A DNA stretch of 52,186 bases, taken from a virus. Lineage: Duplodnaviria > Caudoviricetes. The stretch lies in IMG/VR virus record IMGVR_UViG_3300032334_000367, positions 1 through 52,186 of that record; one strand, given 5' to 3'. This document shows, one piece after another, positions 734-12,814 of this stretch (position 1 is its first letter; every line of letters begins with the position of its first letter). The translations under genes were made by a program, and so were the position numbers. The notes beneath the pieces were generated by a model. That model was not told where the DNA came from, made no database searches, and worked only from the letters and a program-made list of their open reading frames with translations.

Positions 734-796
734 ATTATACCCTCAGAGGGGCTAAAAGGCAAAAGATTATTTCTTCAATGAAATCAACAACTTACG
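734..796 (-). promoter_or_regulatory. Composite early promoter: IHF-like box + TTGCCT-N17-TATAAT
   Basis: -10 at 734-739, -35 at 757-762, AATCAACAACTTA at 782-794 (+ strand). Confidence 0.75.
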
Positions 797-1322
797 GCAT
801 CCCGTTTAAACGTTCTTGAACAGAAATAACCATACCATATTGAGGTCTAGGTGGAGGCGTCTTCACCACTTCTATTTTCGCAGATTTAAGCGTATTAATA
901 CCAGTATCATCTCTATAATCATGCTGATAATAGACTTTTTCAATTCCGCTTGCAATAATCATTTTAGCGCAATCTGCGCAAGGTGCATGCGTAATGAAAA
1001 TGGTTGCACCCTTAGTTGAGTCGCCAGATGCTGCGACCTTGGCAATTGCATTAATCTCAGCGTGAATAACTTCAGGTTTAGTTACCCATGAAACTCTTTT
1101 GATTATGTATGGTGGACTGCCTTCATCTAAAATCCATTCTTGTTCTTTTTCAACTGTATTCTCACAGTTATTGTCGAAACCTTTCGGCATTCCATTATAA
1201 CCATATGATAAGATGCGGTCATCTTTTACAATGACCGCACCTACCTGTAGACGCCTAGCATGAGAGAGTTCAGCAACTCTCTCAGCAGTTTCAGCATAAA
1301 ATTTTATAAATTTATACTTCAC
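792..1322 (-). CDS. cd: dCMP deaminase (ComEB/T4 cd family)
   Basis: HAEINAI and PCADC zinc motifs; VGAVIV..GYNG. Confidence 0.93.
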   Translation of the reverse strand: MKYKFIKFYAETAERVAELSHARRLQVGAVIVKDDRILSYGYNGMPKGFDNNCENTVEKEQEWILDEGSPPYIIKRVSWVTKPEVIHAEINAIAKVAASGDSTKGATIFITHAPCADCAKMIIASGIEKVYYQHDYRDDTGINTLKSAKIEVVKTPPPRPQYGMVISVQERLNGMP

Positions 1323-1324
1323 AT

Positions 1325-1747
1325 TTATGCCTTATTGATCGCTATCTTGCGAGGCTTCTGCTCTTCAGGAATTACATTATGCAATTCGACAGAAAGAATT
1401 CCATCAGCAAGATTTGCGTTACCGACAACGACAGTATCTGCTAGAACAAAGCGACGTTCAAAAGAACGACCAGCAATACCCTTAATCAAATAAGTGCGTT
1501 CATCGGTTTCTTCCTTCTTGCCTGAGATCTTCAGTAGATTCTTTTCTGCCTGGATTTCAACTTCATCTAGTTTGTATCCAGCAATTGCAAGTTCAACGAC
1601 GAAATTATAGTCGTCGACGCGAACAACGTTGGCTGGCGGGAATGCCACATTAGATGAATTTAGGACATCTGATGCATGATCGAGAATATCGAACATACGT
1701 TCAAATCCTAGAGCCGATGGTAGGAAACGATTGTATTGATTACCCAT
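1325..1747 (-). CDS. hsp20: Small heat shock protein Hsp20/IbpA-like
   Basis: FPPANV..ELAIAGY..KGIAGRSFERRF..DGILSV alpha-crystallin domain. Confidence 0.93.
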   Translation of the reverse strand: MGNQYNRFLPSALGFERMFDILDHASDVLNSSNVAFPPANVVRVDDYNFVVELAIAGYKLDEVEIQAEKNLLKISGKKEETDERTYLIKGIAGRSFERRFVLADTVVVGNANLADGILSVELHNVIPEEQKPRKIAINKA

Positions 1748-1801
1748 ATATTAATACTCCTTTTTAAGCAAGTTAAAATACTGAGCCCATATGGCACTCA
1801 G
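1748..1801 (-). promoter_or_regulatory. ROSE-like RNA thermometer in the hsp20 5' UTR
   Basis: ACUUGCUU-AAA-AAGGAGU hairpin pairs UUGCU (bulged G) with the SD; a second hairpin lies at 1781-1801. Confidence 0.65.
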
Positions 1802-1806
1802 CGGTT

Positions 1807-2361
1807 TTATGACCCAGTGGAACCGAACCCGCCAGTTCTATTCATAAAAGGCTCCGGACGCGAGTCCGTTTCAACAAATGCGAAGGTTTCATTCTTCACA
1901 ATTTCTGCTTGGCAGATTCGTTCGTGCAGCTGGATCTTCTGCACAACTTTCGATGTATTAACCATAAGAGCGTACACTTGCTCCTGATAGTCAATATCTA
2001 CAACACCCTCGCTATTTGCGAGAATCAATCCGCGTTTTAATGCCATCCCTGAACGAGCATGGAGGCGAATTGAGTAGGTGCGAGAAATATGTAAATCTCT
2101 TACTGGAACATCAATCTTAAAGATTAATCCAGTAGGAACTAGCAAACGCTCACCTGGATATATAGTCAACTCTCGCGAATCTTTCGGAAGAAATCTCTTA
2201 ATTGGCGTATTATTTTCATCATACCCAGAGACTACATCACTAGCGGGAGAAAAAGTTAAATCGAAACAGGTCGAACCATTAGTACCCCAAACTGGTGTTG
2301 GGACATCAGGCGACATCTTATAAAATTTCAAATTACAATTATTAGCACCTTCTACATACAT
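1807..2361 (-). CDS. dut: dUTPase (trimeric family)
   Basis: ARSG, GVVDIDY, ERICQ and C-terminal RTGGFGSTG motifs. Confidence 0.93.
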   Translation of the reverse strand: MYVEGANNCNLKFYKMSPDVPTPVWGTNGSTCFDLTFSPASDVVSGYDENNTPIKRFLPKDSRELTIYPGERLLVPTGLIFKIDVPVRDLHISRTYSIRLHARSGMALKRGLILANSEGVVDIDYQEQVYALMVNTSKVVQKIQLHERICQAEIVKNETFAFVETDSRPEPFMNRTGGFGSTGS

Positions 2362-2367
2362 AATATT

Positions 2368-2937
2368 TTATCTCTTTATTTCTGTTATCCAACAACCATT
2401 ATTCCATGGATCAGCATAATTGCCGACACCAAAGACATCATCAACTGCTTTTCTAATTGGCGGTGCCCAACCATAATCATGTCCAGCTAAAACACCACCA
2501 TTTTTAACTTTAGGTAGCCAAGCGATAATGTCACGCTTAACTCCTTCATAAGTATGATCAGCATCAATGAATACGAAATCTAGGCTTCCATCTTCATATA
2601 AACTAGCAGCTTCTGCAGAATCCATCCTAATCGGATTAATTATCTCTTTAACTGGAGAAATATTACTGATGAATGTTTCATAGAGAGTGCCGCTTACAAT
2701 TTCTTGTATTTCGTTATGTTCACCCTCAGTTCCCACCCAAGTATCGATACAATCGAATTTAATATTTTTGCCAGAATTTACAATTTCTACTGCCATGTAT
2801 GCAGAAGATTTTCCTTTCCAAGATCCAACCTCAACAAAATGACTTTCTGTTGAAAATTCGCTAACCATAAAAGAATATAGAGTTGGGTATGTAAACCAGT
2901 CCTCGCCCATGTGAGGTAAATGATAAAAGTGTTCCAT
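2368..2937 (-). CDS. Class I SAM-dependent methyltransferase (Methyltransf_24-like)
   Basis: VEVGSWKGKS, FVFIDADHTYE, GGVLAGHDY; start re-called at MEHF (2937), just after the regA stop. Confidence 0.85.
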   Translation of the reverse strand: MEHFYHLPHMGEDWFTYPTLYSFMVSEFSTESHFVEVGSWKGKSSAYMAVEIVNSGKNIKFDCIDTWVGTEGEHNEIQEIVSGTLYETFISNISPVKEIINPIRMDSAEAASLYEDGSLDFVFIDADHTYEGVKRDIIAWLPKVKNGGVLAGHDYGWAPPIRKAVDDVFGVGNYADPWNNGCWITEIKR

Positions 2938-2938
2938 G

Positions 2939-3340
2939 CTATTCCTCTCTTTTTTTCTTTCCAATATTGTACTTAGCAACCAATTCCCAATCATTCTTAT
3001 CCTTGTGTGCAATAATCTTAATTTGGGAAAGAGGAGCTCTTAGTTCTTCAATTCTTTCTGGGGAAACAATCTTAATTAGACCCCATTCTGAGAGAAGGTT
3101 AATGATGGTGTTGCGACGAGCAACATCATTCTCAACAATGCTTGATGGCTTACCATCCAAAGCAAATAGTTCTTTAAAGTGTACAATATAATACTTACCC
3201 TGCTTATGCAGGATATGGCAAGATTGGTAAAGTACATTTTCTTTTTTAGCAGCAACGCCGATTCGAGTAAGAGTTTCGCGAATTTTTAGGAAATCGTCTT
3301 TCTCGGCTAGAGTAACTTCGATTAAATTTTCCACACTCAT
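2939..3340 (-). CDS. regA: Translational repressor RegA
   Basis: DDFLKIRETLTRIG, LYQSCHILHKQGKYYIVHFKELF signature; synteny. Confidence 0.96.
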   Translation of the reverse strand: MSVENLIEVTLAEKDDFLKIRETLTRIGVAAKKENVLYQSCHILHKQGKYYIVHFKELFALDGKPSSIVENDVARRNTIINLLSEWGLIKIVSPERIEELRAPLSQIKIIAHKDKNDWELVAKYNIGKKKREE

Positions 3341-5931: not shown

Positions 5932-6570
5932 TTAAGTAGAACGATTATTATATACTAAATTGACCAAAGAGTCAACCTTTTCAATTAGGTCTTCTAGTGT
6001 GCTATTGTTAGCAATTTCAGCATCAATATCTGACCCAATCCAAGCCCATTCGCTGAAATGTACGTTGGGGTATTGTTCTGCCATACCGTAATAGTTGTTC
6101 TTTTTATTAACTTTAAGAGCAACATTGTACCATTCAGGCTCATCACCACGCTTCACTCGAATTACAATACCACCTGCTTCCCGAATGGCTTTAATTTCAT
6201 TCGGGAAACGAACATCAGCAATTACATAATTGTTCCAAGGTGCATTCTCGCACCGACGCAGAACAGTATGAACCCAGAGGTCAGGGTGAAATACATCACG
6301 TCCTGCCTCTGTGCCCATAAGTTGTAGAGCTAGTCTTGGGGAGAATGATTTACCAAGTTTCTCAGACCAGAACTTATCGTCCTGCTCTCTCCATGCTCGC
6401 GACTCGGGTGTATCGCCTTCAAGGAGAGCACGATCCCAGCCAAAAATAACTGAGACCGCATCCTTAACACTATTGGCAAAGCTTTCTTTAAAAAAGTCGT
6501 GTCGATCTACTAAAAGATCGGCAACGGCTCCCTTGCCTGCCCCAATAAAGCCAACTAGCCCTACTATCAA
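5932..6570 (-). CDS. gp1: dNMP kinase gp1
   Basis: GFIGAGKG, SFA, PRLALQLMGTE, DVRFPNE, HFSE; TTG start overlapping the upstream stop. Confidence 0.92.
   Translation of the reverse strand: MIVGLVGFIGAGKGAVADLLVDRHDFFKESFANSVKDAVSVIFGWDRALLEGDTPESRAWREQDDKFWSEKLGKSFSPRLALQLMGTEAGRDVFHPDLWVHTVLRRCENAPWNNYVIADVRFPNEIKAIREAGGIVIRVKRGDEPEWYNVALKVNKKNNYYGMAEQYPNVHFSEWAWIGSDIDAEIANNSTLEDLIEKVDSLVNLVYNNRST
5947..5975 (-). promoter_or_regulatory. sigma70-like promoter for gp45 (TTGACT-N17-TATAAT), inside the gp1 3' end
   Basis: Near-consensus hexamers with a 17-nt spacer. Confidence 0.7.
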
Positions 6571-7379
6571 AGAGCACCCACATAGTTGGCAACAGCTGCC
6601 ATATCACCAGTGAACGCATAGCTTCCGATGTGGTGAGTCTTCATCCATGGGCACAACCAAATCTTGCCACCCATGTTACGCCACCACTGACAGAACATAT
6701 AGTCTTCAGAGAGATAACGATCAGATCCTTTACCACCATTTTCAACTGTATCAATTACGGTATCGAAGTATGCATGGATGTAACGCGAACCATCAAAGTT
6801 TGCCTGACCAACATGGTCTGGTTTGTATCGAAGATTTGGATAGTTCTCTTCAAACTTAGCAAAAACCTCGCGCTTAACCATCATGAAACCAGTACCGATT
6901 TCCATAACTTCTAGAGGCTCACCAACATTAAACTGACCAGTACCAACTACAGCATTGAAGACATAATCTCCACAAACCTTTTCGAGTTCTGCTCCAGTGA
7001 TGTTTGGGTTACGCTTAACAGCTTCAACAACAGAACCCCACTTAATGGTTTTCTTTGGGTATGGTCCACCAATAACTTCCTTATCAATTGCCATCATAGC
7101 AATAACATCGCGAGGATCGAAGTGAATATCGCTGTCGATAAACAGGAGGTGGCTGAAGCCAGAACGTAGATACTCATCTACAAGATAATTACGAGCGCGA
7201 GTAATTAGGGATTCATTAAAGATAAATGAGAATCTAACTTCAATCCCATACTGAGAACATAGTGCCTGCAAATCAAGACACGACTTAGCATACATGCCAT
7301 GATTCACACCACCATACATTGGTGTGGCGACAAATAGTTTATTCTTGCGCAATGTTTCAACGGAAATTTCCAGCTTCAT
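6567..7379 (-). CDS. GT-A fold glycosyltransferase-like protein
   Basis: VATPMY, SLITRARN, FIDSD (DxD), GTGFMM, SEDYMFC. Confidence 0.75.
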   Translation of the reverse strand: MKLEISVETLRKNKLFVATPMYGGVNHGMYAKSCLDLQALCSQYGIEVRFSFIFNESLITRARNYLVDEYLRSGFSHLLFIDSDIHFDPRDVIAMMAIDKEVIGGPYPKKTIKWGSVVEAVKRNPNITGAELEKVCGDYVFNAVVGTGQFNVGEPLEVMEIGTGFMMVKREVFAKFEENYPNLRYKPDHVGQANFDGSRYIHAYFDTVIDTVENGGKGSDRYLSEDYMFCQWWRNMGGKIWLCPWMKTHHIGSYAFTGDMAAVANYVGAL

Positions 7380-7381
7380 TA

Positions 7382-7954
7382 TTATTCACTCCAGGTAAAA
7401 AAGTCTTTGACTGTATCAATAATCTTAGTTTGGTCATCGTAAGTTTCGTTGACCATTGTTTCTATATAGCCCATGAGAACTAGCGAACTACAAATATTTG
7501 AGATTTTCGTTTCACGGCTGTTCTTAAATTTATCGTCTTGATCGTCTTTTCTATCCACATGACGCTTCTCTTTCTCATCATGGGACGCCCTCAAAACTAG
7601 AACTTTAAAGTTTTCTTCTAGGACATTATCTGCAATATGTTCTAGAAATTTACCGTTGAATAAACGGTCACCTTCAAAAATCACATTGACCTTTTCAGCA
7701 TTTTGCCGCAAGTCATCAATAAACTTAACTGCATCAGGCTGAACAGCCATGCTTAGACGGTCAGTCCCTTGGAATACATTACCATCTTTTTCATATTTAC
7801 CTAGAATATAGGTGCGCAACTTTTCGCTGTATAGCGCATCAAGGAGTTTCTGAGGCTTGCAAACTTTCCAATCGTCAGCCATGGCAATGAGTTTAAAAAT
7901 TAATGTCGTTTTTCCTGTGGCAGGTTCACCACCCAATGCAATCACCTTAAGCAT
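7382..7954 (-). CDS. P-loop kinase, probable 5-hydroxymethyl-pyrimidine DNA kinase (5-HMUDK-like)
   Basis: GGEPATGKTT Walker A, GTDRLS, IFEGDRL; adjacent to the amino-acid:DNA transferase. Confidence 0.72.
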   Translation of the reverse strand: MLKVIALGGEPATGKTTLIFKLIAMADDWKVCKPQKLLDALYSEKLRTYILGKYEKDGNVFQGTDRLSMAVQPDAVKFIDDLRQNAEKVNVIFEGDRLFNGKFLEHIADNVLEENFKVLVLRASHDEKEKRHVDRKDDQDDKFKNSRETKISNICSSLVLMGYIETMVNETYDDQTKIIDTVKDFFTWSE

Positions 7955-8960
7955 AAAAAGCCTCCAAGCCAGTTGTCACTGGTTTTTCATCGTCAAACAT
8001 CCACTCTAATTTAGATATTCTACCTGAATTCAAGTAAGAAGTAAACATTTCTTTGTTAATATTTTTAACGCCAGCTAATGGTGGTTCAAGAGTTTCATTG
8101 CGAGCTTGCCATAAAACATTCCAATCAATACCATGCCAGCCATCTTTTTCTGCCTGTTGAATTTCTTCAGACTGTCTATCAAGATAGTATCCCAAATATC
8201 TTCCATGATGTTCGCGGAAGATTTTCTTAAATGAGCAAAGGCAAGTTTCCATTGTAAAGAAATCAATCTCATCTCTCAATGATGGGAACCTAATTTTCAT
8301 CTCGATGAGAATATCTTGTGCATTTCCTTCAAGAATTCCATATTCCTTTGCAGTAAGTTTTGAATCATATTTGTCATCTTGCCCAAGCGCAAAATGTAAA
8401 CCATTACGATGTGAACGAGACCCAGAATAATCGTCCAACATAAGAGAAGTAGGCTCAACTCTAATATTAGCAGTGTGGTAAAGATGCTGGAGATAAAACC
8501 AAGTGGAATAACGACCAAACTTGTAAAGACCGTTTTTAATAGCTCCCCATAAATTGTCGAATGATTGGTGTTCGTTGTCTCCATAATAACTCTCCAAAGC
8601 TTCACGTTGAGATCTATTTCCAATAAATTTTTGATATGATTCGAACATCACGGGAAGATGTCCCTTGTTCCACTTGGTGTCAGTTTGATATCTTAATCGT
8701 TTATAGTTTTTTGTGTTCCACTGCGTGATTCTATCCACAGTAGCAAGTTCAAAGTCTGGGAATTCATTCTTCAGAACCCATGTGGTTGGAAGCTGATATG
8801 TATTACCATACAACCAGCAAATCCAAATTCTTTCTTCGTCGTTGTGTTCATATCTTTTATTAAGATAGTTTGTAAGCCATACAGCAGGGTCGCAATCTTT
8901 ATATTGCAGCGACCAAGCATACCACCGAATAAATTGTTCTAGACGTTCTTTATTAATCAT
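7947..8960 (-). CDS. Amino-acid:DNA transferase (aGPT-Pplase2/ADDT, HhH-glycosylase fold)
   Basis: DCDP, FGRYSTWFY and METCLCSFKK motifs typical of the family; gene context. Confidence 0.72.
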   Translation of the reverse strand: MINKERLEQFIRWYAWSLQYKDCDPAVWLTNYLNKRYEHNDEERIWICWLYGNTYQLPTTWVLKNEFPDFELATVDRITQWNTKNYKRLRYQTDTKWNKGHLPVMFESYQKFIGNRSQREALESYYGDNEHQSFDNLWGAIKNGLYKFGRYSTWFYLQHLYHTANIRVEPTSLMLDDYSGSRSHRNGLHFALGQDDKYDSKLTAKEYGILEGNAQDILIEMKIRFPSLRDEIDFFTMETCLCSFKKIFREHHGRYLGYYLDRQSEEIQQAEKDGWHGIDWNVLWQARNETLEPPLAGVKNINKEMFTSYLNSGRISKLEWMFDDEKPVTTGLEAFYA

Positions 8961-9484
8961 GATAACTCATCGAAAATTTCTGCGCAACCACCCTTACCCT
9001 TGCGGTAAATCGCCTTTCGTATTGTAGGGTCTGCAGTATCATATATTCCAGTGTTAATAGTTAAACCATTAATTCTAAAGATGCTTAGTTGACATTTGCT
9101 CTTTTGAGCGCACCAAAATTTAAATCCAATCTTTTTATAGAAAGCGACAGCATCAGGTTCTGCTGAAACTCTGAAATACTCAGCGTGTTTAGAAATAGAG
9201 TCATTAAAAGAATATTCGCAAAGATACTTACCGACTCCACGACCTCTAAATTTAGCAAAGGTGTGCAGTAGTTGTAGATTAGCAACATGCGGTGGACGTT
9301 TCGATATTGTGGTTATAATCGCTCCAGCTAACTCATCGTCAACAAACGCACCAAGACATTCAGACCATTGGTCTTGCATATTTGCTTTAGATACAAAAGT
9401 CTTTGCGAATGAATCAGCTTTATCTGAGCTAATAGCTGGAATAAATTCTTCTTTCGTTATCTTTCTGATGTCAAACAACGGCAT
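8957..9484 (-). CDS. GNAT-family acetyltransferase
   Basis: FRGRGVG acetyl-CoA motif A, AVAFYKKIGF motif B; start re-called at MPLFD. Confidence 0.85.
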   Translation of the reverse strand: MPLFDIRKITKEEFIPAISSDKADSFAKTFVSKANMQDQWSECLGAFVDDELAGAIITTISKRPPHVANLQLLHTFAKFRGRGVGKYLCEYSFNDSISKHAEYFRVSAEPDAVAFYKKIGFKFWCAQKSKCQLSIFRINGLTINTGIYDTADPTIRKAIYRKGKGGCAEIFDELS

Positions 9485-10343
9485 GAAATTCCCGATGCTT
9501 ACTTCCACGCTCTTTAGGATACTTGGTTGCTTCCCAACCAGTGTAGAGATCATGGTCATACACTAGAGGTGGGAAATTATATCCTTGCTGTAAAATAACA
9601 TCTACATCAGGACCATCGTTCAGCGCAGCATCAATAAACTGAGATGCGAATCTAAAGCAGTTTGAAATTTCAACCTTATTGGTAGATGACCTGAAACAAC
9701 GGAACTCGATAGTTCCTGTATGCTTCATGCAATATGTATTGATAGCATGACGGAATGGACGACCCATTGAAGCGCCATCCTTACCTGCTGCGTGAAGTTT
9801 GATGAAGTGATCAAAATCAGTAGCCAGATTGATGATATTGCTGCACATGTAATCTGGCATTGGACGTCCGCCGTCCCACTTCAAATAAGTGCGAGCAGTC
9901 TTCGTGTCTTTCATGGCATAATGTTCTTTATACTGATAACATGCCTTGATAGTTTGCTCTTGATTGCGCTGAATGTATGCAATGAGGCTCTTTAGCGCAC
10001 CAATATCATCTTTAAGACCAGGAACAAATACATGGAGATGTCCATGATTTACACAAGATGAGGTGGGCTCATTACCGCTAGCTGCAAACAAGTCATGAAT
10101 CTCCATGATTCTATCAACTTGTTCAACCCAAGTCTTTGTTGGTTTGGTATTAATCTCACCGCCAAAAGGTGGCTCCAATCCAAGAGGATCGCAGGCAACG
10201 CCACGATATGGGTCGCGCTCATTGACAATATCAGTTTCTGCATATTCCCATTTTCCTAGATGTTCAGGAATTTGAAAATTACGAGGGATATCACCCCATT
10301 CTATCTCATAGCCATAGGTAAACGTGTCAGGAGAATATTTCAT
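9471..10343 (-). CDS. Putative amidoligase (COOH-NH2 ligase, Amidoligase_2-like)
   Basis: TYGYEIE, GGEINT, GHLHV, AIN, GTIEFR motifs of the glutamine synthetase/GCS-like fold. Confidence 0.8.
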   Translation of the reverse strand: MKYSPDTFTYGYEIEWGDIPRNFQIPEHLGKWEYAETDIVNERDPYRGVACDPLGLEPPFGGEINTKPTKTWVEQVDRIMEIHDLFAASGNEPTSSCVNHGHLHVFVPGLKDDIGALKSLIAYIQRNQEQTIKACYQYKEHYAMKDTKTARTYLKWDGGRPMPDYMCSNIINLATDFDHFIKLHAAGKDGASMGRPFRHAINTYCMKHTGTIEFRCFRSSTNKVEISNCFRFASQFIDAALNDGPDVDVILQQGYNFPPLVYDHDLYTGWEATKYPKERGSKHREFHAVV

Positions 10344-10345
10344 AA

Positions 10346-10975
10346 TTACACCATTTGTAAATCTTTAGTATCACTTCCGCATGGAACAATATCAGCTTTA
10401 TACTTTCTACCAGAAGCTCTGTACATAATATCTGCAGTAGAAGTTATGATGTAGCCATTGTCCAATTCAGTTTTATATAGGGGACGTTTACCGTTGCGAT
10501 AATATCTCATCTCCCCACAAGCATGTAGCTCAATAGCAGCAATGCTAGCATTTCTCCAAAGAAACAGAGGGGTCCTATCCACTGTATGCAGTAATAACTC
10601 GCTGTCATTTTTAGTTTGTGTATCAATTTCATATAGCTTTTTCCAATTTTCAGGAAGTTCTTGAGAAATTACGCCATTATGTACAATGGCAACATGATTA
10701 GTGTATAGCGGCTGGTTGTACTCTAGGTCACTAGTGCTATACCGACAATGACCGATTAACTTAATAGATTTTCCGCAAAGCTTTTCAAGCTTCTCTAGGT
10801 GAGAAAAATTATCTGATGATACTGGTTCTTTGAATGTAAGAAGTTCTTTCTTACTTAAGATTGTCATACCAGTTGCATGTAATCCTCTAATCTTAGACTC
10901 TATAAAAACTCTGCGGATTAGTTCAAACTGCTCAGCAGTAGGGTTTTCAATATTAACACCAATTACAGCACACAT
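10346..10975 (-). CDS. Class II (Ntn) glutamine amidotransferase
   Basis: N-terminal Cys2 (MCAVIG), RG..ATG, GHCRYST, HNG, NDSE, RPL. Confidence 0.87.
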   Translation of the reverse strand: MCAVIGVNIENPTAEQFELIRRVFIESKIRGLHATGMTILSKKELLTFKEPVSSDNFSHLEKLEKLCGKSIKLIGHCRYSTSDLEYNQPLYTNHVAIVHNGVISQELPENWKKLYEIDTQTKNDSELLLHTVDRTPLFLWRNASIAAIELHACGEMRYYRNGKRPLYKTELDNGYIITSTADIMYRASGRKYKADIVPCGSDTKDLQMV

Positions 10976-12333
10976 TAACCGAACAATGCCTCTAGTGAGC
11001 TTTCCTTGGTGTTAGCTTTTGGATGATACTTGTCAAGCATTTCTCGACCACCATGAGTTTCAAGATAGTCATACCATTCTTTAGTTTCCCACATCCCTTC
11101 ACTTACACCATTCCACAACTTACGTTGCATTGGGTGCTCAGGATTTTTGCGACGAAATTCTACAAACTCAAAGCGATGGTTTTCATATTCATATGAGCCA
11201 AGTTCAAGCATCTTCTCACGAAGATAACAAACAAGGCTGATACGCTCACCGTCATCATATGTTTCAATAGGAGTGTTACCATGAATAATCTCATGATTGT
11301 TCACAAGTAATAGATCGCCTGGACGAACATTTACCGCAATGCGATACTCTGGGAAAATAAGGTAGCCACCACGATACTTTCCATTATTAGAGAGCACAAG
11401 AAGATTGCTTAGACCATCGCTGAAATCTCCAGCATCACGATGACATGCAGTACGGAAAGTCTTGTTCACAGTAATAGTTGTGAATACAGTTTCAGGAACT
11501 AGGAATCGCTGGTCAATTTTATCAGCTGCAGCTCTCTGATTACCCCAACGCGAAGGTAGAAGTTCTTTAAACCCTTTGTCGAGAGTTTGTAGGAAGGGGA
11601 ATGCCATTTTGAATTTATCAAAATGATTCTTGGTGTAAGCAGTAGCGCGACCATATGGGATGCGAGGATAACGATCGAACCAACCAGCAATACCAGAGTT
11701 TACTGCATTAGCATAGGTTGTATCAGAAATATATTTGTCTAGAGTATCTCTAGCAGAACTACGAATCTGAGCTTTATCTTTAAGCTTAAGAACGCCTTTC
11801 AACCAACCATCAAAGTTAAAATTATTTTTTTCAACTTCAGAAGCCAACCAAACCAGACCACGAGTCGAGGAGTTATCCTTTGTCTTTTGCTTGACCAATT
11901 CAATTTCTGTTTTAAGGTCTACTTGAATTACAGTTTCTTGTAGATCCGCTAGGAGCTCTAAAGTTTGAATTTGATAATCTGTAACCCATTCACGCTGGGC
12001 GCACTTTTCGCCTCTTGGTCCAGAAGCCAACCCACGATTCTGCGATGGAGTTGCGGCTTCTCGCAAACCAAGATATGCTTGTTCTTGTTCTTCTTTGCTG
12101 AAGAAATTCTTTCTGAACATGAAAGCGATACGCTTTTCATCTTTGGTATTCTTAGACTTGCAATCTTTGCAGTCTGATTCTTTACACTGAGCTTTCTCGA
12201 ACGGAGAGCAATCTGCTTCATAGTAGCAGTCAGTGTCTGACTCAATAAGTGTATCATAATGAGTCTCATCTACAAATTGTCCAAGTAGATGTTCACAATC
12301 AATTTTAGTTCTAGCGACAATTACATTAACCAT
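10975..12333 (-). CDS. TET/JBP-family 2OG-Fe(II) dioxygenase
   Basis: FTTITVN, CHRDAGD (HxD), HEIIHGN distal His, ERISLVCY (RxS). Confidence 0.85.
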   Translation of the reverse strand: MVNVIVARTKIDCEHLLGQFVDETHYDTLIESDTDCYYEADCSPFEKAQCKESDCKDCKSKNTKDEKRIAFMFRKNFFSKEEQEQAYLGLREAATPSQNRGLASGPRGEKCAQREWVTDYQIQTLELLADLQETVIQVDLKTEIELVKQKTKDNSSTRGLVWLASEVEKNNFNFDGWLKGVLKLKDKAQIRSSARDTLDKYISDTTYANAVNSGIAGWFDRYPRIPYGRATAYTKNHFDKFKMAFPFLQTLDKGFKELLPSRWGNQRAAADKIDQRFLVPETVFTTITVNKTFRTACHRDAGDFSDGLSNLLVLSNNGKYRGGYLIFPEYRIAVNVRPGDLLLVNNHEIIHGNTPIETYDDGERISLVCYLREKMLELGSYEYENHRFEFVEFRRKNPEHPMQRKLWNGVSEGMWETKEWYDYLETHGGREMLDKYHPKANTKESSLEALFG

Positions 12334-12361
12334 TACATTCTCCGACTCTCAAGGTAATTCT

Positions 12362-12390
12362 ATTATACCTCTTACTTATGCAGAAAGCAA
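12362..12390 (-). promoter_or_regulatory. sigma70-like promoter of the DNA-modification operon (TTGCTT-N17-TATAAT)
   Basis: Hexamers at 12385-12390 and 12362-12367, just downstream of a terminator. Confidence 0.72.
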
Positions 12391-12395
12391 ACTCG

Positions 12396-12427
12396 AAAAC
12401 GATGTGGGGGGCAAAAAGCCCCCCACA
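12396..12427 (-). terminator. Rho-independent terminator
   Basis: 10-bp perfect stem TGTGGGGGGC/GCCCCCCACA followed by TCGTTTT. Confidence 0.8.
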
Positions 12428-12459: not shown

Positions 12460-12741
12460 TTAGGCAGCAATAGCATCGCGATAAAGAGACTTACGAGCGC
12501 GAGCAATATGCCGCGACTCAATGCTCTTCATAAACGATTCGCTTGGGGTGCCAAGACGATAGGCGAAAGTCTTCTCACCACGGCTATTGGTCACACGATT
12601 GGTGTAAACAGCAACGCCCTGATTGCGTAGACGATAGACTAGGTCAGCGACATTCTCGACCTTGAAAAGAGTACGAGCCTGACGCGAAGTCACCTGATTT
12701 CCGTTAGCGAGATAACGGTACATAGAAAGAACAGCAGACAT
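12460..12741 (-). CDS. Small winged-HTH DNA-binding protein
   Basis: YLANG..VTSRQA..VADLVYRLRNQG..YRLG pattern; start at MSAVL with a GAGG SD. Confidence 0.65.
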   Translation of the reverse strand: MSAVLSMYRYLANGNQVTSRQARTLFKVENVADLVYRLRNQGVAVYTNRVTNSRGEKTFAYRLGTPSESFMKSIESRHIARARKSLYRDAIAA

Positions 12742-12814
12742 ATTAAAATCCTCAACTACAAACACCGCGCAATTCAACTCTACTGGGGTGCGGCTTACTC
12801 AGTAGATACATTAT

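What the first reader, a model, noticed from the sequence alone, without database searches (positions are those of the whole stretch)
5932..12390. Candidate new DNA base-hypermodification operon: TET/JBP oxygenase + GATase + amidoligase + GNAT + AA:DNA transferase + kinase + glycosyltransferase + dNMP kinase
Seen: eight co-directional genes follow one sigma70-like promoter just after a terminator, all overlapping or 2 nt apart (TAATG at 10975, ATGA at 8957-8960, TTGA at 6567-6570), embedded in the replication module. Known: TET/JBP enzymes hydroxylate the 5-methyl of T or 5mC in DNA. In phages ViI, M6 and PaMx11 a 5hmdU DNA kinase plus an aGPT-Pplase2 transferase attach Ser or Gly to 5hmU, which is then tailored by PLP decarboxylase, radical SAM, flavin lyase or GNAT enzymes, with 5hmU supplied by dUMP hydroxymethylase. 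Here the PLP, rSAM and flavin enzymes are absent from the operon, and a TET/JBP oxygenase and a GATase-amidoligase pair appear instead. Inference: T is oxidised to 5hmU on DNA, phosphorylated, substituted with an amino acid, then amidated and N-acetylated. That would give a base I do not know to be described, probably serving anti-restriction or anti-CRISPR protection.
Basis: partly seen in the sequence, partly recalled or inferred. Interest (0 to 1): 0.92.

Follow-up and report, generated by a model that had tools for sequence, protein, structure and literature searches.

The report
Phage thymine hypermodification gene cassette
An uncultured T4-like phage carries a tightly packed set of enzymes that most likely oxidise thymine in its finished DNA and build a nitrogen-bearing, acylated side chain on it; this kind of gene set is already published, but the base it makes is still unknown.

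Summary
The eight minus-strand genes are real and packed as described. Six of them (TET/JBP oxygenase, class-II glutaminase, GS-like amidoligase, GNAT, amino-acid:DNA transferase AADT, 5-hmdU-kinase-like P-loop kinase) form a conserved module. In AMID-seeded IMG/VR loci, TET was present in 59 of 59 with room upstream, and AADT, kinase and GNAT in 51 of 51 with room downstream. The glycosyltransferase-like gene and the dNMP kinase are lineage neighbours of the clamp gene, not module members.

The architecture is not new. Lee et al. 2021 (PMC8989533) and O'Toole et al. 2026 (PMC13229309) describe TET_JBP clusters with kinase, AADT, GATase and amidoligase, of unknown product. This scan has also reported the cassette before on other DNA.

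Its "GATase plus amidoligase amidate an amino acid" step is less so. The glutaminase always travels with the AADT (33 of 33), also without the amidoligase (4 of 33). A complex prediction also docks the glutaminase's active-site face on the AADT (ipSAE 0.84, best control 0.00).

My reading: glutamine-derived ammonia gives 5-aminomethyluracil, which is then acylated or acetylated. The window lacks the ParB-like gene of its nearest relatives. The TET and AADT proteins end in polymerase-like clamp-binding tails.

The parts
12403..12427 (-). Intrinsic-terminator-like hairpin that closes the upstream gene (a 105-aa winged-helix protein) and sits just before the cassette
   Evidence: 10-pair stem with 8 G-C pairs and a T-rich tail. 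Sequence read.
12362..12390 (-). Promoter-like site TTGCTT-N17-TATAAT, 28 nt upstream of the TET start codon
   Evidence: sequence read directly. The -10 is perfect and the -35 matches 3 of 6, which is below the threshold of the scan. Function is inferred.
10975..12333 (-). TET/JBP-family (5mYOX) Fe(II)/2OG dioxygenase, 452 aa. It has a conserved N-terminal region (about residues 1-240) and a polymerase-like C-terminal tail, SSLEALFG. Predicted thymine dioxygenase making 5hmU in DNA.
   Evidence: Pfam Tet_JBP 8.9e-22. phrog_24024 1.6e-163. H298, D300, H351 and R364 are invariant in 37 sequences. AF2 pLDDT 83.4. Foldseek top hits are NgTET1 (8.4e-10), CcTet, CMD1 and TET2. The tail motif is present in 56 of 59 distinct orthologues.
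10346..10975 (-). Stand-alone class-II (Ntn) glutamine amidotransferase domain, 209 aa. Predicted glutaminase that docks on the AADT.
   Evidence: Pfam GATase_6 7.9e-10. Met1-Cys2 is invariant in 28 of 28 distinct sequences, and R78, N100, G101 and D124 are invariant. The complex prediction places its active-site face on the AADT.
9471..10343 (-). Glutamine-synthetase-like carboxylate-amine ligase (Amidoligase_2-like), 290 aa
   Evidence: Pfam Amidoligase_2 E 0.0041, below cut-off. A 32-34% identical relative, L030:3995-4960, passes the cut-off (25.2 against 22 bits). AF2 pLDDT 92.4. All top Foldseek PDB hits are GS, GmaS, gamma-glutamylcysteine ligase, YbdK or PafA, but they are weak (E 2e-3 and worse, TM 0.3-0.4).
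8957..9559 (-). GNAT N-acetyltransferase. The longest ORF is 200 aa; the probable start is Met33 at 9463.
   Evidence: Pfam Acetyltransf_10 1.4e-12. Its only PHROG hit, phrog_1249, is also the best PHROG of PaMx11 gp48, the 5-NmdU acetyltransferase (1.7e-24). BLASTP against gp48 gives E 5e-4 and 23% identity over 122 aa. The start is inferred from the alignment.
7947..8960 (-). Amino-acid:DNA transferase (AADT, also called aGPT-Pplase2 or ADDT), 337 aa, of a clade that always travels with the glutaminase. C-terminal tail GLEAFYA.
   Evidence: Pfam ADDT 6.9e-20. phrog_3271 5.1e-52, the family of the ViI gp247-like protein of phage phiMAM1. G149, E238 and C242 are invariant across 19 sequences that include M6 gp51. 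The tail motif is present in 18 of 25 distinct close-clade members.
7382..7954 (-). P-loop kinase of the 5-hmdU DNA kinase (5-HMUDK) family, 190 aa
   Evidence: Pfam Ploopntkinase3 2.5e-4, below cut-off, but 17 of 19 orthologues match it, best 3.9e-13. phrog_800 6.9e-14 is the family of M6 gp54 and PaMx11 gp49. hhalign of the orthologue profile against M6 gp54 gives 95.8% and E 6.7e-9; against PaMx11 gp49 it gives 95.9% and E 6.2e-9.
6567..7379 (-). GT-A-like glycosyltransferase candidate (contains FIDSDIHF), 270 aa. It is co-transcribed with the cassette but is a neighbour of the clamp gene rather than a member of the conserved module.
   Evidence: phrog_1574 1.5e-58, function unknown. Pfam Anp1 below cut-off. 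Homologues of 44-46% identity occur in Sinorhizobium phiM12-group phages and Ochrobactrum phage OC, none of which gave a TET match. It stays next to gp45 when TET lies elsewhere (L002, L052). It is absent within 2.5 kb of the kinase in 13 of 30 cassette loci.
5932..6570 (-). dNMP kinase, 212 aa (TTG start). An ordinary nucleotide-metabolism gene next to gp45.
   Evidence: Pfam DNMK 5.9e-10. phrog_139 9.7e-46. It is absent from many cassette loci.

Best explanation
The six genes from 7382 to 12333 form a post-replicative thymine hypermodification cassette of a T4-like aquatic phage. The proposed order of steps follows.

1. The TET/JBP-type dioxygenase hydroxylates thymine in finished DNA to 5-hydroxymethyluracil. 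It probably works from the sliding clamp, because it ends in the same acidic-hydrophobic tail as the DNA polymerase of related phages.
2. The P-loop kinase phosphorylates the hydroxymethyl group, as M6 gp54 does.
3. The AADT uses its conserved Cys and Glu to expel phosphate and form an exocyclic methylene.
4. The stand-alone class-II glutaminase, docked on the AADT, supplies ammonia from glutamine as the nucleophile. The product is 5-aminomethyluracil.
5. The GS-like amidoligase then joins a carboxylate, probably an amino acid, to that amine with ATP.
6. The GNAT caps a free amine. This is either 5-aminomethyluracil itself, which would give the PaMx11 base 5-AcNmdU, or the appended residue.

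Shown by homology, motifs and co-conservation: the enzyme families, their intact catalytic residues, their linkage, and the lack of any 5mC or pre-replicative 5hmU source. Inferred: the order of steps, ammonia as the AADT's nucleophile, the amidoligase substrate, the final base, and a role in protection against host nucleases.

The GT-like gene and the dNMP kinase are co-transcribed neighbours, not shown to take part.
For: Families and catalytic residues.

Thymine as the substrate:
- No PF00145 match in the window or in 0 of 5 related records, four of them 92-100% complete.
- No ThyA-family match in 0 of 5 related records, while ThyX was found in 4 of 5.

Co-conservation:
- Among 78 new loci chosen only by the amidoligase, TET was found in 59 of 59 with more than 2.2 kb upstream. 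AADT, kinase and GNAT were each found in 51 of 51 with more than 3.8 kb downstream.
- Among 106 unique loci, 33 GATase loci have at least 6 kb downstream. All 33 have the AADT and the kinase, but only 29 have the amidoligase.
- Minimal cassettes TET-GAT-AADT-kinase exist (L041, L044).

GATase-AADT coupling:
- The three-chain prediction (AADT, amidoligase, GATase as partner) gave ipSAE 0.84 (runs 0.84, 0.88, 0.79), with best of 3 controls 0.00.
- The mark was reached by 58 of 80 solved complexes and 2 of 110 mismatched pairs.
- The runs agree in at least 82% of contacts, and partner pLDDT is at least 86.
- All confident contacts are between GATase and AADT. Replacing the AADT while keeping the amidoligase gave 0.00.
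- GATase residues at the interface include 1, 28-33, 79-81 and 101-107, next to the invariant C2, R30, R78 and N100-G101.
- The 25 AADT interface residues are 83% conserved in GATase-linked AADTs, against 68% for the other 312 residues (permutation p 0.008). They are only 15% conserved in GATase-less AADTs.

Tailoring steps:
- The GNAT shares its PHROG with the PaMx11 5-NmdU acetyltransferase.
- ATP-dependent amide ligation on a DNA base has a precedent in CmoY (PMC12783734, passages).

Clamp tails:
- Only TET and AADT, 2 of 62 window ORFs, carry the tail motif.
- Family-B polymerases of 5 related records end in STLEDFFG-like tails.
- The motif is in 56 of 59 TETs and 18 of 25 close-clade AADTs. 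It is in 0 of 27 GATases, 0 of 20 amidoligases, 0 of 28 kinases, 0 of 41 GT-like proteins and 0 of 40 gp45.
Against: - No chemistry was measured. The product and the order of steps are inference.
- The complex job used my own alignments and three chains, unlike the tool's calibration, so its counts hold only roughly. A pass supports binding but does not show it.
- Every characterised AADT transfers an amino acid or a polyamine, not ammonia (Lee et al. 2021).
- The window AADT falls in the PHROG of the ViI-type serine transferase, so an amino-acid donor remains possible.
- The amidoligase never occurs without the GATase (26 of 26), which also fits a GATase-amidoligase partnership.
- The amidoligase assignment is weak for the window protein alone.
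- The window lacks the ParB-like gene that its 95-98% identical relatives carry. O'Toole et al. 2026 found one 5mYOX subclass to need such a partner on double-stranded DNA.
- The contig is only 31% complete, so absences in the window itself are weak evidence.
- The window's own polymerase gene is not on the contig.
Confidence: 0.55

Rival explanations
1. The AADT attaches a free amino acid (Ser or Gly type) to phospho-5hmU. The GATase channels ammonia to the amidoligase, which amidates the carboxylate of the appended amino acid. The GNAT then acetylates its amine.
For: All characterised AADTs use amino acids or polyamines. The window AADT shares phrog_3271 with a ViI gp247-like protein. The amidoligase is never seen without the GATase (26 of 26). 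GS-like ligases that use ammonia are the textbook case. A glutaminase-bearing amide-ligase cluster next to CmoX was predicted to amidate a DNA carboxylate (PMC12783734).
Against: The GATase occurs with AADT and kinase but without the amidoligase in 4 of 33 unique loci, and minimal TET-GAT-AADT-kinase cassettes exist. The predicted GATase interface is on the AADT. AADT interface residues are conserved specifically in GATase-linked AADTs.
Confidence: 0.25
2. Add-and-remove or donor-synthesis logic. The amidoligase and the Ntn-hydrolase-type GATase act like EgtA and EgtC: they add and later cleave a gamma-glutamyl group. Alternatively, they build the small-molecule donor that the AADT transfers, rather than tailoring DNA.
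For: The amidoligase model's fold neighbours include gamma-glutamylcysteine ligases and YbdK. Class-II GATase folds also act as amidohydrolases (recalled knowledge of EgtC, not tested here). Earlier notes of this scan raised the same idea.
Against: The GATase keeps the full glutaminase residue set (C2, R78, N100-G101, D124). It is predicted to face the AADT. It also occurs without the amidoligase.
Confidence: 0.1
3. The oxygenase works on 5-methylcytosine, as phage TET clades A and B do, so the cassette modifies cytosine rather than thymine.
For: Phage TETs that oxidise 5mC exist (Burke et al. 2021, passages). The T-dioxygenases studied by O'Toole et al. also oxidise 5mC in vitro (abstract).
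Against: No PF00145 methyltransferase was found in the window or in 0 of 5 related records. The methyltransferase at 2368-3012 is Methyltransf_24, not a C5 DNA methylase. The kinase and the AADT are homologues of enzymes that act on 5hmU.
Confidence: 0.04
4. The cassette in this particular phage is crippled. Loss of the ParB-like activator gene leaves the oxygenase inactive on double-stranded DNA, so little or no modification is made.
For: The window differs from its 95-98% identical relatives L016 and L004 by replacement of the GNAT 3' part and the 433-aa ParB-like gene. No ParB_N match was found in the 52 kb. One 5mYOX subclass depends on ParB.
Against: All six ORFs are intact. ParB-less versions of the full cassette recur: L069-L071, L075 and L077, and 23 of 51 loci. 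Orthologous TETs work in TAGT or GT cassettes that never have the ParB-like gene. 69% of the genome is unseen.
Confidence: 0.06

Closest known systems
Metavirome contigs with TET_JBP + 5-hmdU DNA kinase + aGPT-Pplase2/AADT, co-associated with amidoligase and glutamine amidotransferase genes (Lee et al., NAR 2021/2022, PMC8989533, Fig. 2 sequences 22-25; passages read)
   Same: The gene families and the logic are the same. TET_JBP replaces dUMP hydroxymethylase as the 5hmU source, next to the kinase and the AADT. The amidoligase and GATase are present, with function unknown.
   Different: That paper names no product and no roles for the GATase and amidoligase. I could not see its figure or supplements, so I cannot say whether this contig or a near relative is one of its examples. 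Added here: the always-together GATase-AADT pairing, a predicted complex, and clamp-type tails.
Phage 5mYOX clade C1 'ParB-dependent' thymine dioxygenase neighbourhoods, for example 5mYOX176/ParB176 (O'Toole et al., PNAS 2026, PMC13229309; sections 5, 6, 9, 11, 12 and 13 read)
   Same: A TET/JBP enzyme without a C5-methyltransferase neighbour is linked to GATase, P-loop kinase and AADT. Relatives of the window carry a ParB-N-like gene inside the cassette.
   Different: The window has no ParB-like gene. Its TET is 452 aa, against about 290-300 aa stated for one subclass.
Pseudomonas phage PaMx11 pathway to 5-acetylaminomethyl-dU (gp49 kinase, gp46 glycine:DNA transferase, gp47 FAD lyase, gp48 acetyltransferase)
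   Same: The kinase (phrog_800) and the acetyltransferase (phrog_1249) fall in the same PHROG families as gp49 and gp48. 5-aminomethyl-dU is the likely shared intermediate.
   Different: There is no flavin lyase and no dUMP hydroxymethylase. The amine would come from glutamine through a docked glutaminase rather than from glycine cleavage. An amidoligase is added. The AADT belongs to a different PHROG (phrog_3271, against phrog_6364).
Salmonella phage ViI pathway to 5-NeOmdU (5-HMUDK, serine:DNA transferase gp247, PLP decarboxylase)
   Same: The window AADT falls in the same PHROG as the gp247-like protein of phage phiMAM1 and keeps the essential Cys and Glu.
   Different: Identity is only 26%. 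There is no PLP decarboxylase. 5hmU is made after replication by TET.
CmoX/CmoY system of Synechococcus phage S-B43 (5-carboxymethylcytosine-glycine amide; PMC12783734, passages read)
   Same: An ATP-dependent amide ligase acts on a modified base in DNA. A sister cluster with a glutaminase domain is predicted to use glutamine-derived ammonia.
   Different: The base is cytosine, the handle is a carboxymethyl group, and the ligase is of the asparagine-synthetase type rather than GS-like. No oxygenase, kinase or AADT is involved.
Base J synthesis in kinetoplastids (JBP1/2 plus a glucosyltransferase)
   Same: Thymine is hydroxylated in DNA by a TET/JBP enzyme as the first step. Sister phage loci carry TET plus TET-associated or GT1-type glycosyltransferases at the same position.
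   Different: In the window the 5hmU is routed through a kinase and an AADT. The nearby GT-like gene is not linked to TET across genomes.

Membership tests
TET/JBP (5mYOX) dioxygenases, Pfam PF12851 | Profile match above the curated cut-off | tested here: met
   77.5 bits against a cut-off of 34.9, E 8.9e-22, residues 245-373.
TET/JBP (5mYOX) dioxygenases, Pfam PF12851 | HxD...H iron triad and the 2OG-binding Arg | tested here: met
   H298, D300, H351 and R364 are invariant in 37 aligned orthologues. Mapping these residues to the triad rests on general knowledge of 2OG oxygenases.
TET/JBP (5mYOX) dioxygenases, Pfam PF12851 | TET-type jelly-roll fold | tested here: met
   AF2 model with pLDDT 83.4. 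Foldseek PDB top hits are NgTET1 (8.4e-10), CcTet, CMD1 and TET2.
Phage thymine dioxygenase subclass (clades C1/C2 of O'Toole et al.) | No C5-cytosine methyltransferase partner | tested here: met
   No PF00145 match in the window or in 0 of 5 related records. The window covers only 31% of its genome.
Phage thymine dioxygenase subclass (clades C1/C2 of O'Toole et al.) | Cognate ParB-like activator gene in the neighbourhood (ParB-dependent subclass) | tested here: not met
   No ParB_N match in the window. The ParB-like 433-aa gene of relatives L016 and L004 is replaced in the window.
Phage thymine dioxygenase subclass (clades C1/C2 of O'Toole et al.) | Oxidation of T to 5hmU, and placement in the published tree or sequence similarity network | not testable with these tools
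   This needs an assay, or the paper's sequences, which are in closed supplements.
Amino-acid:DNA transferase (AADT / aGPT-Pplase2, Pfam PF18724) | Profile match above the curated cut-off | tested here: met
   72.2 bits against a cut-off of 26.2, E 6.9e-20.
Amino-acid:DNA transferase (AADT / aGPT-Pplase2, Pfam PF18724) | Essential Cys and nearby Glu (mutagenesis of M6 gp51 and ViI gp247; Lee et al. 2021) | tested here: met
   E238 and C242 are invariant in 19 sequences that include M6 gp51 and a ViI gp247-like protein. The requirement is quoted.
Amino-acid:DNA transferase (AADT / aGPT-Pplase2, Pfam PF18724) | Transfers a free amino acid to phospho-5hmU | not testable with these tools
   The donor is unknown. 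My reading is ammonia from the docked glutaminase.
5-hmdU DNA kinase (5-HMUDK; Ploopntkinase3, phrog_800) | Profile match, P-loop, and homology to proven kinases | tested here: met
   The window protein alone is below the Pfam cut-off (21.1 against 27 bits). However, 17 of 19 orthologues match, best 3.9e-13. hhalign gives 95.8% against M6 gp54 and 95.9% against PaMx11 gp49. All fall in phrog_800. G9, G14 and K15 are invariant. Plain BLASTP against gp54 was not significant (E 0.15).
Class-II (Ntn) glutamine amidotransferase | N-terminal catalytic Cys directly after Met, plus a profile match | tested here: met
   GATase_6 at 39.3 bits against a cut-off of 27. M1-C2 is present in 28 of 28 distinct sequences. 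R78, N100, G101 and D124 are invariant. Their equivalence to PurF residues is recalled, not tested.
Amidoligase_2 / glutamine-synthetase-like carboxylate-amine ligases | Profile match above cut-off, or a clear fold match | tested here: inconclusive
   17.5 bits against a cut-off of 22. A 32-34% identical relative passes (25.2 bits). The confident model (pLDDT 92.4) finds only GS, GCL, YbdK and PafA folds, at E 2e-3 or worse and TM 0.3-0.4.
GNAT N-acetyltransferases | Profile match above the curated cut-off | tested here: met
   Acetyltransf_10 at 48.1 bits against a cut-off of 23.6. It shares its PHROG with PaMx11 gp48.
DNA glycosyltransferase of the TET pathway (TAGT or base-J-type) | Curated family match and linkage to TET across genomes | tested here: not met
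   No TAGT hit, and Anp1 is below its cut-off. Homologues occur in phage records that gave no TET match. The gene is absent after the kinase in 13 of 30 cassette loci. True TAGT genes occur in sister loci (L014, 2.1e-15).

The most novel reading that the evidence does not exclude
A clade of amino-acid:DNA transferases has recruited a stand-alone class-II glutaminase. Together they would form a glutamine-dependent 'DNA aminase' that converts phospho-5hmU directly to 5-aminomethyluracil. A GS-like ligase and a GNAT then build an N-acyl (aminoacyl, acetyl-capped) side chain, giving a thymine derivative not yet described. The first and third enzymes would ride on the replication sliding clamp through polymerase-type tails, which would couple hypermodification to the replication fork.
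Probability: 0.35. Interest if true: 0.75.

Novelty: new member of a known kind. Interest (0 to 1): 0.5.

Why it matters
The cassette is very common in environmental T4-like phages: 356 amidoligase-encoding stretches were found in IMG/VR alone. Its product is nonetheless one of the thymine hypermodifications that the field has flagged but not solved.

Three things seen here turn 'function unknown' into a specific, cheap experiment: the natural drop-out series (TET-GAT-AADT-kinase, then plus GNAT-like, then plus amidoligase and GNAT), the predicted glutaminase-AADT complex, and the clamp-type tails. A glutamine-fed amination of DNA would be a new enzymatic way to place an amine handle on DNA. 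It would also be a new counter-defence chemistry that restriction enzymes, CRISPR and DNA-glycosylase defences have to cope with.

As a finding of this scan it is not unique. The same cassette has been reported on other DNA several times.

Tried and rejected
What led nowhere:
- Megablast of the 6.5-kb region against the phage collection found nothing.
- Sequence-only PDB searches gave little. The TET-like protein gave only E 0.015 to CcTet. The amidoligase, GT-like protein and kinase gave nothing useful.
- BLASTP of the window kinase against M6 gp54 matched only the P-loop (E 0.15). The profile comparison was needed.
- The N-terminal 240 aa of the TET protein gave no Pfam family (best was zf-PARP at E 0.13). 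I leave that region unassigned.
- The Cys cluster at residues 36-56 is absent in several orthologues, so it is not essential.

Ideas considered and rejected:
- That the 105-aa upstream protein (12460-12777) is the ParB-like partner. It is a winged-helix HTH_39 protein and lies before the terminator.
- That the methyltransferase at 2368-3012 supplies 5mC. It is Methyltransf_24.
- Iterative oxidation to 5-carboxyuracil followed by amidation. This is less parsimonious, because the GATase and the amidoligase never occur without kinase and AADT.

The complex job says nothing about GATase-amidoligase binding either way. No interface was reported there, and that is not evidence against binding.

Literature coverage:
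- Searches for a paper that characterises the GATase or amidoligase step: one search found 0 papers and one search found only Lee et al. 2021. One search was swamped by unrelated 'AADT' hits. One search found 41 papers, of which 25 were listed; I read passages of three. None assigns these enzymes.
They may contain this contig's relatives or unpublished product data.
- The bioRxiv version of O'Toole et al. was seen only as a search listing.
- Iyer/Aravind 2009 and 2013 are recalled, not read.
- PMC7824862 held nothing relevant.

Tools not used: the search for homologous proteins, the search of protein representatives, sequencing-run tools and RNA tools.

Full report
WHAT IS THERE

The window is a 52-kb IMG/VR virus record, estimated 31% complete. 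It belongs to a T4-like aquatic myovirus. Its clamp loader gp44 is at most 59% identical to any cultured phage; cyanomyoviruses and the Methylophilales phage Melnitz are nearest.

From 38.5 kb down to base 25, every long ORF lies on the minus strand.

Upstream lie gp47, gp46, peptide deformylase, CobT, CobS and a small winged-helix protein, followed by a strong terminator-like hairpin at 12427-12403. Next comes TTGCTT-N17-TATAAT at 12390-12362. Its -10 is perfect and its -35 is weak, so it falls below the scan's threshold.

Downstream, gp45 follows the dNMP kinase after 4 nt with no terminator between. After gp45 come a small regulator, gp44, gp62 and RegA. The 'operon' therefore has a clear start but no clear end. 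An 11-of-12 promoter-like site lies at 5975-5947, just before gp45.

WHAT THE PROTEINS ARE

- TET-like protein. Pfam Tet_JBP is well above cut-off. H298, D300, H351 and R364 are invariant in 37 orthologues. An AlphaFold model (pLDDT 83.4) finds NgTET1, CcTet, CMD1 and TET2 as best PDB matches.
- AADT. Pfam ADDT is well above cut-off. Lee et al. 2021 showed a Cys and a nearby Glu to be essential in M6 gp51 and ViI gp247. These are E238 and C242 here. They are invariant in an alignment that includes M6 gp51 and the gp247-like protein of phiMAM1.
- Kinase. The window protein alone is under the Pfam cut-off. However, 17 of 19 orthologues match Ploopntkinase3. The orthologue profile matches the proven 5-hmdU kinases M6 gp54 and PaMx11 gp49 at about 96% hhalign probability. 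All three fall in phrog_800, which is mislabelled 'terminase small subunit'.
- GATase. It is a stand-alone class-II domain. Met-Cys starts 28 of 28 distinct sequences, and R78, N100-G101 and D124 are invariant.
- Amidoligase. This call is the weakest. Pfam is below cut-off, although a relative passes. A confident model (pLDDT 92.4) has PDB neighbours that are all glutamine-synthetase-type carboxylate-amine ligases, but with weak scores.
- GNAT. It is clear in Pfam. Its only PHROG is also the best PHROG of PaMx11 gp48, the 5-aminomethyl-dU acetyltransferase.
- GT-like protein. It has a DxD-like FIDSD motif and a large PHROG of unknown function, but no curated family.

IS IT CO-CONSERVED, AND WHAT BELONGS TO IT?

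A scan of IMG/VR with the TET protein gave 158 confirmed relatives, of which the best 80 were kept.

The TET gene anchors a variable island. Depending on the phage, it is followed by one of these:
- a TET-associated glycosyltransferase (13 loci);
- a GT1-type glycosyltransferase (11 loci in the simple form);
- a distant AADT with a kinase, often with a myo-inositol-1-phosphate synthase;
- a GATase-containing cassette (34 loci).

The GATase cassettes come in a natural drop-out series:
- TET-GAT-AADT-kinase (L041, L044);
- the same plus a GNAT-like protein (6 loci);
- plus a GT1, a distant amidoligase and a low-molecular-weight phosphatase (7 loci);
- the full GAT-amidoligase-GNAT form (18 loci).

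Of the 18 full-form loci, 11 have a 433-aa gene between the GNAT and the AADT, one (L040) has a different unrelated gene there, 5 have none, and 1 is cut short.

A second scan, seeded only with the amidoligase, found 356 relatives. Among its 78 new loci:
- TET is present in 59 of 59 that have room upstream;
- AADT, kinase and GNAT are each present in 51 of 51 that have room downstream;
- the 433-aa gene is present in 28 of 51.

After removing duplicate loci (106 unique of 158), 33 GATase loci have at least 6 kb downstream. All 33 have the AADT and the kinase, and 29 have the amidoligase.

The GT-like gene behaves differently:
- It follows the kinase within 2.5 kb in only 17 of 30 loci.
- It stays beside gp45 when TET is elsewhere, as in Cr30 and L052.
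- Homologues of 44-46% identity occur in the Sinorhizobium phiM12 group and in an Ochrobactrum phage. None of these records gave a TET match.

I therefore count six genes as the module. The GT-like gene and the dNMP kinase are co-transcribed neighbours.

WHICH BASE?

No C5-cytosine methyltransferase family match exists in the window. None exists in five related records either, four of them 92-100% complete and three of those carrying GATase cassettes.

Those records also lack any ThyA-family enzyme, the family that includes dUMP and dCMP hydroxymethylases. Four of the five encode ThyX.

The phage therefore makes ordinary dTMP. It has no pre-replicative route to 5hmU or 5hmC and no way to make 5mC. 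Thymine in DNA is the only sensible substrate, as Lee et al. and O'Toole et al. argued for such contigs.

HOW THE NITROGEN GETS THERE

The census speaks against an obligatory pair. The GATase is always with the AADT and the kinase, and sometimes without the amidoligase.

I sent one three-chain complex job with the AADT, the amidoligase and the GATase as partner. The score was ipSAE 0.84 (three runs: 0.84, 0.88, 0.79), and the best of three controls was 0.00. The tool states that this mark was reached by 58 of 80 solved complexes and 2 of 110 mismatched pairs. The runs share at least 82% of contacts, and the partner's pLDDT is at least 86.

Every confident contact is between the GATase and the AADT. 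Replacing the AADT while keeping the amidoligase dropped the score to 0.00. The GATase surface involved surrounds its catalytic residues.

As a partly independent check, I compared conservation at the 25 AADT interface residues:
- In GATase-linked AADTs they are 83% conserved, against 68% for the rest of the protein (permutation p 0.008).
- In GATase-less AADTs they are only 15% conserved.
- The difference between the two groups exceeds every one of 5000 random residue sets.

The model supports binding but does not prove it. The job also differs from the tool's calibration, because it used three chains and my own alignments.

Taken together, I read the GATase as the ammonia donor of this AADT clade. 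The product would be 5-aminomethyluracil, which is already known as the PaMx11 intermediate. The amidoligase and the GNAT would then acylate or acetylate the new amine. ATP-dependent amide ligation on a DNA base has a recent precedent in CmoY. The final base remains unknown.

TWO FURTHER FEATURES

First, the window differs from its nearest relatives. L016 and L004 are 95-98% identical to it in DNA over the flanks. In the window, the 3' part of the GNAT gene and the 433-aa gene are replaced by a different, shorter GNAT end. The last 130 nt or so of TET also differ.

The missing gene has a ParB/Noc N-domain-like core:
- profile against PDB, E 5.5e-4;
- 5 of 10 members weakly match ParB_N;
- ParB-like PHROGs at about 1.5e-4.

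It is plausibly the 5mYOX-associated ParB of O'Toole et al. ParB-less full cassettes recur, so I do not think the window's cassette is dead, but that remains possible.

Second, I followed a lead in earlier notes of this scan. I found that only 2 of the 62 window ORFs end in an acidic-hydrophobic [LI][DE]x-hydrophobic-aromatic tail. They are TET (SSLEALFG) and the AADT (GLEAFYA).

Family-B DNA polymerases of five related records end in STLEDFFG-like tails. The motif is in 56 of 59 distinct TETs and 18 of 25 close-clade AADTs. It is in none of the GATases, amidoligases, kinases, GT-like proteins, gp45, gp44, CobS or deformylases examined.

In T4, such C-terminal tails of gp43, gp55 and gp33 bind the sliding clamp and are interchangeable (PMC2988020, passages). 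The window's own polymerase is not on the contig, and no binding was measured.

COMPARISON WITH WHAT IS KNOWN, AND VERDICT

The architecture is in print. Lee et al. 2021 describe contigs in which TET_JBP replaces dUMP hydroxymethylase next to the kinase and the AADT. They note co-associated amidoligase and glutamine amidotransferase genes of unknown function. O'Toole et al. 2026 show that phage 5mYOX enzymes of this kind oxidise thymine. They state that one subclass is 'consistently linked' with GATases, P-loop kinases and AADTs.

A 2026 paper still lists only radical-SAM, PLP, flavin and acetyltransferase enzymes as characterised tailoring enzymes.

The window is therefore a new member of a known, chemically unsolved kind. 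This scan has already reported the cassette on other DNA, with similar readings.

Interest is moderate, for three reasons: the product is unknown, the cassette is abundant, and the glutaminase-AADT coupling and clamp tails give concrete tests.

Noticed in passing
L016:4643-5944 (also L004, L013, L038, L045, L055, L058, L063, L066, L067, L083); absent between window 8960 and 9251: A 433-aa gene with a ParB/Noc N-domain-like core and a GIY-YIG-looking N-terminus (by eye) sits between the GNAT and the AADT in the window's nearest relatives. In the window it is replaced, together with the GNAT 3' end.
   Followed up: partly
L074:2734-3861, L039, L072, L073, L079, L081; also Cr30 (L002:14293-15474): TET cassettes with a distant AADT (21-31% identity) and a kinase carry a myo-inositol-1-phosphate synthase (PF01658, 3.4e-21) instead of the GATase, amidoligase and GNAT. 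This hints at an inositol-derived thymine adduct.
   Followed up: no
L014:2346-3158, L011:11366-12697 and about 25 other loci: At the same genomic position, sister phages carry TET followed only by a TET-associated glycosyltransferase (PF20691, 2.1e-15) or a GT1-type glycosyltransferase. That would be a base-J-like route. The locus is a swap site for DNA-modification cassettes.
   Followed up: partly
L069:11528-11914 (family F19; also L070, L071, L076-L078): A dATP/dGTP diphosphohydrolase N-terminal domain protein (PF18909, 1e-34) sits directly after the kinase in some cassettes. A DUF3310 protein takes this place in others (L075:5562-5918).
   Followed up: no
window 5947-5975 (minus strand): TTGACT-N17-TATAAT, an 11-of-12 match and the best sigma-70-like site in the scanned 9.5 kb. 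It lies inside the 3' end of the dNMP kinase gene, just upstream of gp45.
   Followed up: no
window 12166-12228 (TET residues 36-56): A Cys cluster (CxxxxC...CxxxxCxxC) in the TET N-terminal region is present in most orthologues. It is deleted in the nearest relatives (L016, L005) and several others, so it is dispensable.
   Followed up: partly
window 792-3012: dCMP deaminase, Hsp20, a dUTPase-like protein and a Methyltransf_24-type (O-methyltransferase-like) gene lie just past RegA. The methyltransferase is not a C5 DNA methylase.
   Followed up: partly
L050:4333-5010: One relative carries an N6/N4 DNA methylase (PF01555, 3.2e-17) between TET and its distant AADT.
   Followed up: no
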